Source: Octopus vulgaris
Lineage: Eukaryota
Direction of reading: 5' to 3'
DNA: 64,000 nt
Assembly (NCBI GenBank): GCA_951406725.2
Contig: OX597818.1
Span: forward strand, 101,184,001-101,248,000
The notes beneath the pieces are model-generated. The model saw only the letters and a program-made list of their open reading frames with translations. It searched no databases and was not told the DNA's origin. The number at the start of each line of letters is the position of its first letter. Position 1 is the first letter of the stretch. Below are positions 7,351 to 7,772 of this stretch, one piece after another. Position numbers and translations under genes: made by a program.

Positions 7351-7772
7351 TAGAGTGGTTGTATACTGTCAACTTAACGTGACAGTAGGGAATTACACCA
7401 CCGCTGTTTAGCCCTAGGAAACATCGACGCTTCCTGCCGGCTTCAACACATTTCCTGTGTCCTTATATATTTACGAGACAGATATCTTCAGCTAGCAGGC
7501 CTCTGCTACTCTAGACCGATGATGGTCAAAGACCCTGAAACATGCGTGTCTCTAGATGCAGGCCTAGCTGTTGGGGGTATTTGTCCCCCCTTTGTAAATA
7601 TATAAGGACACAGGAAATGTGTCGAAGCCGGCAGGAAGCGTCGATGCTTCCTAGGACTAAACAGCGGTAGTGTAATCCCCTACTGTCATGTTAAGTTGAC
7701 AATATACAACCACTCTATCACCCCACCACCGTACATATCTCTATGAGATATTTAGAAATTTAATATTTCTGA
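7351..7772 (+). mobile_element. Rod-like fold-back element in (TA)n: ~125-bp arms (7351-7475, 7593-7717), HHR at the apex, ~55-nt unpaired 3' tail
   Basis: TAGAGTGGTTGTATA... at the left end mirrors ...TATACAACCACTCTA at the right end. All arm mismatches are transitions. Confidence 0.9.
7510..7556 (+). ncRNA. Type I hammerhead ribozyme motif (CCGAUGA core variant)
   Basis: TCTAGA-CCGATGA-T-GGTC-AAA-GACC-CT-GAAAC-ATGCGT-GTC-TCTAGA. Stems I, II and III and the GUC cleavage triplet are all present. Confidence 0.8.

What the first reader, a model, noticed from the sequence alone, without database searches (positions are those of the whole stretch)
7351..7772. 370-nt rod with a complete hammerhead at its apex
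Beyond the ~125-bp mirror arms, pairing continues imperfectly (GACAGATATC/GGTATTTGTC, CAGCTAG/CTAGCTG, GGCCT..TGC/GCAGGCC) straight into HHR stem I (TCTAGA/TCTAGA). This inner part uses bulges and G-U pairs instead of exact mirroring, which suggests an evolved RNA fold and not a fresh DNA inversion. Cleavage at GUC (after 7550) would nick the apex of a long dsRNA, a possible self-priming or Dicer/ADAR substrate (inference).
Basis: partly seen in the sequence, partly recalled or inferred. Interest (0 to 1): 0.75.

Follow-up and report, generated by a model that had tools for sequence, protein, structure and literature searches.

The report
Retrozyme insertion with Penelope-type inverted arm
The long hairpin is one copy of an abundant 354-base non-coding repeat that carries a hammerhead-ribozyme motif on a conserved inner stem, and its 126-base mirror arm was likely added by Penelope-type copying during this one insertion, so the rod as a whole is likely an ordinary by-product and not an evolved RNA.

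Summary
The rod is real (z -28) but has two parts with different histories. The inner ~130 nt (7477-7604) is the hammerhead plus extended helix I of a ~354-nt repeat with thousands of candidate copies. Across subfamilies it shows 9 compensatory pairs of 45, so it is an evolved RNA fold. The outer 126-bp arm is an inverted, 5'-truncated second copy of the same element. It is missing from 26 of 28 other subfamily-A loci, and its 8 differences are uncompensated transitions. Copy ends cluster at two sites ~55 nt apart, and 39 of 44 inverted loci pair one of each: the Penelope 'tail' footprint. Truncations cluster at the stem base (22 of 74), so similar rods recur independently. This copy's hammerhead carries a private helix II change predicted to misfold it. 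Cleavage and expression are untested. It is a new member of the metazoan non-LTR retrozymes, likely moved by Penelope enzymes. The scan noted a like element elsewhere in this genome.

The parts
7351..7476 (-). Inverted, 5'-truncated second copy of the element (unit positions ~175-300); ends at the short 3' end site, without tail. Forms the 5' mirror arm.
   Evidence: BLAST of the unit from L028 on the locus; 118/126 complementary to 7592-7717
7464..7476 (.). Junction homology: reads both as the end of the inverted arm and as the element's own basal-helix 5' strand; 6 nt of the unit are missing at the crossover.
7464..7772 (+). Direct copy of the ~354-nt retrozyme-like unit (unit positions ~41-354), 94% identical to L028.
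   Evidence: profile search E 1e-77
7477..7604 (+). Family-conserved extended helix I (inner rod) with compensatory changes between subfamilies.
   Evidence: native copy L003 folds at z -6.85
7507..7557 (+). Type I hammerhead motif: loop-1 UAC 7507-7509, helix I 7510-7515/7551-7556, core CCGAUGA 7516-7522, helix II 7523-7536 (U.U base, private T7526), GAAA 7537-7540, short near-palindromic helix III, predicted cut after C7550.
   Evidence: sequence; subfamily tallies; pair probabilities
7592..7717 (+). 3' part of the unit that pairs with the inverted arm (3' mirror arm).
7718..7772 (+). ~55-nt Penelope-type 'tail', present on this end only.
   Evidence: two end clusters at ~u300 and ~u354
7335..7350 (.). 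AT-rich left flank; no clear target-site duplication.
7773..7809 (.). (AT)n right flank; family ends are enriched beside (AT)n.
   Evidence: 47 of 126 ends against 214 of 3280 control windows

Best explanation
The stretch is one aged insertion of an abundant ~354-nt non-coding repeat with a type I hammerhead motif on a conserved extended stem, and it was likely inserted by a Penelope-like (PLE) reverse transcriptase/endonuclease that likely primed two cDNAs at once, producing the mirror arm. Shown: unit, copy anatomy, covariation, two fixed 3' ends. Inferred steps: (1) tandem source loci are transcribed and the hammerheads cut out monomers or circles, as in known retrozymes. (2) The PLE enzyme nicks both strands of AT-rich DNA and starts one cDNA at the long site (u354) and one at the short site (u300). 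(3) The second cDNA stalls at the base of the element's long stem (u155-195), while the first reads through the hammerhead. (4) Because the two strands of the stem are complementary, the two cDNA ends anneal there, so the mirror arm continues the inner stem without a break and puts the hammerhead at the apex. The arms then decayed neutrally. If transcribed, the locus would form a long dsRNA, but nothing shows that it is selected to.
For: Family size: 1427, 2263 and 2724 first-look candidates for subfamilies A, B, C. Units of 354/348/360 nt join head to tail in 38 of 82 loci. Outer ends fall in two clusters in all three subfamilies; 39 of 44 inverted loci have one short and one long end. PMC11167929 maps two RT start sites to the tail; PMC3846280 and PMC8557442 describe inverted truncated copy plus one-sided tail for PLEs. 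22 of 74 secondary pieces start at u155-195 (p 6e-5 against uniform), and 10 of 28 junctions next to the hammerhead copy start there (p 0.003; 9 of 27 after removing the duplicate pair L131/L146). Six rods have six crossover points. In L034, L036, L039, L084 and L142 the tail is on the hammerhead-less arm, so neither arm is a subset of the other, which needs two cDNAs. The window's arms share one rare variant (1 of 72 family reads), which fits one source template. PLEs with RT and GIY-YIG and open 781-aa frames exist in the genome. A PLE at 25-30 kb of this window has the same inverted arms with a one-sided extension.
Against: No autonomous partner was found: a profile of 29 full units matched no pLTR in 33 PLE loci, only separate insertions nearby; these are 33 of 6136 candidates. 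No subfamily-A locus examined holds two hammerheads in direct tandem; this was seen only in subfamily C, 4 of 25 loci. The tail (~55 nt) is longer than the 30-40 bp in the papers read. The uniform null is crude, and BLAST ends inside a self-complementary stem blur by up to ~25 nt. Loci are the best-scoring 25-30 per search, not a random sample. For the window alone, fold-back of a single cDNA fits equally well. The covariation is mostly one A-versus-B split: pairs-with-double-change 9 against 6.6 in shuffles, 61 of 500 shuffles as high.
Confidence: 0.8

Rival explanations
1. Same element and enzyme, but the mirror arm arose by fold-back: a single cDNA read through the hammerhead, its 3' end paired with its own copy of the stem, and it copied itself back to the short site (self-priming, as proposed for PLE palindromes).
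For: In the window the inverted arm (u175-300) lies wholly within the direct copy (u41-354), the junction is in the stem homology, and both arms share a rare variant. PMC3846280 proposes self-priming for palindromic junctions.
Against: It cannot make loci where the tail is on the hammerhead-less arm (L034, L036, L039, L084, L142). It needs a separate reason to stop at exactly the site where plain copies also end.
Confidence: 0.25
2. The whole 370-nt rod is an evolved RNA (viroid-like or host-co-opted) in which hammerhead cleavage opens a long dsRNA for Dicer, ADAR or self-priming.
For: Very stable fold; continuous pairing; about 7 independent continuous rods among 81 loci.
Against: Arm absent from 26 of 28 other A loci. 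Junctions differ between rods. The 8 arm differences are all single transitions: 6 mismatches and 2 G-U on the + strand, none compensated, none an A-to-G change on the + strand relative to the family majority. The private T7526 shifts helix II to a slipped register (probability 0.7, against 0.02 for the family register; 0.89 in native copies).
Confidence: 0.05
3. The unit is not a free retrozyme but the pLTR end of a longer autonomous PLE that was not sampled.
For: PLE-type ends and inversions; only 33 PLE loci compared.
Against: Upstream of unit position 1, copies run into the unit's own 3' end at a 348-360 period, with dimers and a trimer in subfamily C. The hammerhead is of the full type (6-bp helix I, 6-nt loop 2), not the minimal PLE type. 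No PLE reading frame adjoins unit position 1 in the loci scanned.
Confidence: 0.1
4. Assembly or long-read fold-back artefact.
For: Palindromes are a known artefact class (recalled); no contig laid spanned the junction (uninformative).
Against: The arms differ at 8 of 126 positions, each arm carrying its own departures from the family majority; the arm ends at the family's short site.
Confidence: 0.02

Closest known systems
Metazoan non-LTR retrozymes (Cervera and de la Pena 2020, PMC7229834; parts 2-4 of 6 read): mussel 350-390 bp repeats, axolotl Rtz_353 with HHR_Amex2
   Same: Non-coding ~350-nt unit with one type I hammerhead, head-to-tail repeats, thousands of copies; U.U mismatch at the base of helix II and a short helix III as in HHR_Amex2.
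   Different: Mostly dispersed monomers and partial tandems with inverted arms; subfamily A has C at core position 4; circular RNA and cleavage not tested here.
Insertions of endonuclease-bearing Penelope-like elements (Arkhipova 2013 PMC3846280, passages; Craig 2021 PMC8557442, passages; Frangieh 2024 PMC11167929, parts 1-2 of 4)
   Same: 5' truncation, partial tandems, adjacent inverted truncated copy, tail on one end only, two 3' end sites, bias for AT-rich DNA and microsatellites.
   Different: No ORF; tail ~55 nt instead of 30-40; no sequence link to the PLE pLTRs sampled.
PLE hammerheads (Cervera and de la Pena 2014, PMC4209133; parts 1-2 of 4)
   Same: Type I, palindromic helix III suited to dimer folding, U3-A8 core variant (subfamily C), opposite-strand hammerhead pairs 100-700 bp apart.
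   Different: This one has the canonical geometry (6-bp helix I, 4-position helix II, 6-nt loop), not the minimal PLE form.
Retrozymes as non-autonomous PLE derivatives (Li, Clavereau, Pollet, bioRxiv 10.64898/2026.07.22.740005; parts 1 and 3 of 5 and passages)
   Same: Proposes PLE mobilisation of retrozymes from co-occurrence and pLTR homology.
   Different: Mostly vertebrates; the word 'tail' does not occur in its main text, so the insertion-end evidence used here is not the evidence used there. Its supplements were not seen.

Membership tests
Type I hammerhead ribozyme | Core C3 U4 G5 A6 N7 G8 A9, G12 A13 A14 A15, U16 H17 | tested here: inconclusive
   All present except U4 = C in subfamily A (21 of 24 CCGAUGA); B is canonical (23 of 24); C has U3-A8. 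U4C is a reported natural variant that lowers but keeps activity (PMC3088659 and PMC9608096 passages; the primary paper was not held).
Type I hammerhead ribozyme | Three helices around the core, with covariation | tested here: met
   Helix I pair UA/CG and helix II pair GC/AU change on both sides between A and B. U.U at 10.1-11.1 is known in active ribozymes. Met for the family; helix II is disturbed in the window copy.
Type I hammerhead ribozyme | Self-cleavage after GUC | not testable with these tools
   Helix III has pair probability 0.00 in the monomer ensemble for both window and native copies; tertiary contacts and dimers are not modelled.
Non-LTR retrozyme | Non-coding unit of 150-450 nt with one type I hammerhead | tested here: met
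   354/348/360 nt.
Non-LTR retrozyme | Head-to-tail repeats with two or more hammerheads | tested here: inconclusive
   Partial tandems in 38 of 82 loci; two or more direct hammerheads in 4 of 25 subfamily-C loci (L129, L142, L144, L145), none seen in the A or B loci examined.
Non-LTR retrozyme | Expressed as monomeric linear and circular RNA | not testable with these tools
   Only contigs of runs not on record as RNA were available.
Penelope-like element insertion | Inverted 5'-truncated copy next to the insertion | tested here: met
   44 of 82 loci.
Penelope-like element insertion | Tail on one end only (two 3' end sites) | tested here: met
   39 of 44 inverted loci; ~55 nt.
Penelope-like element insertion | AT-rich or microsatellite target bias | tested here: met
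   47 of 126 ends against 214 of 3280 controls.
Autonomous Penelope-like element | RT plus GIY-YIG ORF, or homology to a pLTR | tested here: not met
   No ORF in the unit; no pLTR match in 33 PLE loci.
Viroid-like rod RNA | Whole rod conserved as the replicating unit, ribozymes in both polarities | tested here: not met
   Arm absent or differently joined in other copies; no minus-strand hammerhead with proper helices in the motif scan.

The most novel reading that the evidence does not exclude
Animal retrozymes are inserted by Penelope enzymes through twin priming from two fixed start sites, and the retrozyme's conserved ~150-nt extended helix I acts as both a stall site and an annealing site. 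About one in ten hammerhead-bearing copies then becomes a 300-400-nt perfect-looking RNA rod with the ribozyme at its tip: a built-in, recurring source of dsRNA that could feed small-RNA silencing of the family.
Probability: 0.4. Interest if true: 0.5.

Novelty: new member of a known kind. Interest (0 to 1): 0.27.

Why it matters
The locus itself is ordinary: an aged copy with a likely impaired ribozyme. The family-level pattern has modest value. Which enzyme moves animal retrozymes is still argued from co-occurrence and homology (PMC7229834; bioRxiv 2026.07.22.740005). Here the insertion ends carry the Penelope footprint directly, name two testable RT start sites, and favour two cDNAs over simple fold-back. 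Three subfamilies also give a natural series of hammerhead core variants (C4, canonical, U3-A8) on one scaffold.

Tried and rejected
Rfam: no hammerhead match. Expression: no RNA holder listed. Contigs of eight coded runs were laid; they cannot show ends, strand or cleavage, and none spanned the window's junction. The head-to-tail joint also stands in a run of unknown kind (X15), so it does not show a circle. Partner search: BLAST and a 29-copy profile against 32-33 GIY-YIG loci found only separate insertions of related units. The hit in L109 next to a PLE proved to be subfamily C, separated from the PLE by microsatellite. Long frames near A/B copies belong to other elements or simple repeats. 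The first ungapped arm comparison was one base out of register and was discarded; one search corrected it. Literature: searches for retrozyme + octopus (2 listed, neither describing this family by title or abstract start), Penelope + non-autonomous + inverted + twin priming (1 unrelated review) and retrozyme + Penelope + tail + inverted + insertion (4 listed) showed no paper on this family. Subscription journals, Repbase/Dfam and bioRxiv supplements were not searchable. Rows dropped before counts: L001 (the window), L009 (same locus as L003) and L061 from the 82-locus set; L002, L007, L017, L027, L063, L065, L075, L083 and L086 were also left out of alignment A1 (truncated or gapped), which holds 24 A and 24 B rows.

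Full report
Observation. The + strand of 7351-7772 folds into one rod from 7351 to 7717 at -268 kcal/mol (shuffles -105 +/- 6; z -28), and the - strand at z -30. The outer arms, 7351-7476 and 7592-7717, are complementary at 118 of 126 positions. Inside them pairing continues with bulges into a type I hammerhead motif: helix I 7510-7515/7551-7556, core CCGAUGA 7516-7522, GAAA 7537-7540, GUC ending at 7550. Rfam finds no hammerhead here.

Context. The window lies in a 2.8-Gb animal genome rich in (AT)n; earlier scan notes call it an octopus genome, which I did not test. The inner region has 1427 first-look candidates. A complete monomer in locus L028 is 354 nt, and its 3' end is followed directly by position 1 in partial tandems. 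On this unit the window is an inverted piece u175-300 followed by a direct copy u41-354. Two more subfamilies were found: B (348 nt, 71% identical to A, 2263 candidates) and C (360 nt, 2724 candidates).

The inner stem is an evolved fold. In an alignment of 24 A and 24 B copies, 96.7% of cells of a 45-pair structure are paired. Nine pairs change on both sides: three in the basal helix, three in the next, and one each in the upper helix, helix I and helix II. Slid controls pair 31-47%. The signal is mostly one split between two subfamilies, and the count of such pairs alone is not beyond shuffles (61 of 500); the cell count and score are (0 of 500). Subfamily C keeps the same layout with a U3-A8 core pair and an A-U pair at the base of helix II. 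A native A copy folds at z -6.85. The geometry (6-bp helix I, 6-nt loop 2, short near-palindromic helix III, U.U at the base of helix II) resembles axolotl HHR_Amex2, which cleaves weakly as a monomer and better as a dimer. C at position 4 is family-wide in A (21 of 24) and is a reported tolerated variant. The window copy alone, 1 of 30, has T at 7526; this moves helix II to a slipped register (probability 0.7 against 0.02), whereas native copies keep the family register at 0.89. This copy is therefore likely impaired.

The outer arm is an insertion product. Of 28 other A loci, 2 have an arm joined near the stem, and only L007 continuously. A search with the junction itself found four more rods; these, L007 and the window cross over at six different points inside the stem homology. 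The 8 arm differences are all transitions, uncompensated, spread over both arms; one rare variant is shared by both arms, which fits a single source. Across 82 loci, 44 have inversions and 38 have partial tandems. Outer ends fall at ~u290-305 or at the unit end, and 39 of 44 inverted loci have one of each. 47 of 126 ends abut (AT)n, against 214 of 3280 control windows. This is the anatomy described for Penelope-like elements: inverted truncated copy, one-sided tail, microsatellite bias, with the tail bounded by two RT start sites in vitro. A PLE with RT and GIY-YIG remnants at 25-30 kb of this same window has inverted arms with a one-sided extension.

Why the rod looks seamless. Secondary pieces start at u155-195, the base of the stem, in 22 of 74 cases (p 6e-5 against a uniform null). 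10 of 28 inverted junctions beside a hammerhead copy start there (p 0.003; L131 and L146 are one duplicated event). Ten of 82 loci are rods by a loose rule, about 7 independent and continuous. I infer that RT stalls at the stem base and that the two cDNA ends anneal through the stem's own complementarity. Loci in which the tail sits on the hammerhead-less arm (L034, L036, L039, L084, L142) cannot come from fold-back of one cDNA, which favours twin priming for the family. The window alone fits either route. The null is crude, the loci are best hits and not a random sample, and BLAST ends blur inside the stem.

What was not shown. Cleavage, transcription, circles, editing and small RNAs were not testable. 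No autonomous partner was identified: the genome has PLEs with open 781-aa RT-GIY-YIG frames, but none of 33 PLE loci shares sequence with the unit. Two or more hammerheads in direct tandem were seen only in subfamily C (4 of 25 loci).

Comparison and verdict. It works like, and most likely is, a metazoan non-LTR retrozyme (unit size, hammerhead type, tandem joins), inserted in PLE fashion. It is not an autonomous PLE and not a viroid-like rod. Three paper searches showed no description of this family, but the class and the architecture are in print, and the scan has noted like elements in this and other genomes. New member of a known kind; interest 0.27.

Noticed in passing
window 24994-30385: Penelope-like element with RT (27571-28488, - strand) and GIY-YIG (27108-27587) remnants, 1.4-kb inverted arms at 97.5% and a ~30-nt extension on the right arm only; a hammerhead-like motif with a UUGA core sits near both arm ends.
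   Followed up: partly
window 34785-35349 and 40309-40887: Head-to-head palindrome with two hammerhead-like motifs (CUGAAGA core, U.U at the base of helix II); present twice because ~33.8-36.8 kb is repeated at ~39.4-42.3 kb.
   Followed up: no
window 6517-7335: A different repeat family (2476 candidates) with its own nested inverted arms lies directly left of the rod; four copies on contig C2 are spaced ~2.2 kb apart. No clear hammerhead was found in it.
   Followed up: partly
window 8160-8833: Another ~670-bp palindrome (91%) centred on a microsatellite.
   Followed up: no
window 33848-33988 and 39377-39517: Old 3' fragments of a more distant relative of the 354-nt unit (E 2e-9).
   Followed up: no
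L111 906-4587; L112; L113: Young PLE family with a 781-aa RT-GIY-YIG frame preceded by a separate 360-480-codon upstream frame with no convincing Pfam match; its pLTR hammerhead has a U3-A8 core.
   Followed up: no
L114 4806 (+) and 4504 (-); L116; L118: Another PLE family whose pLTR hammerhead-like motif also shows CCGA or CUGA at the core and U.U at the base of helix II.
   Followed up: no
L121 109-356; L114 5578-5812; L080 630-785: Further, more distant subfamilies of the unit exist.
   Followed up: no
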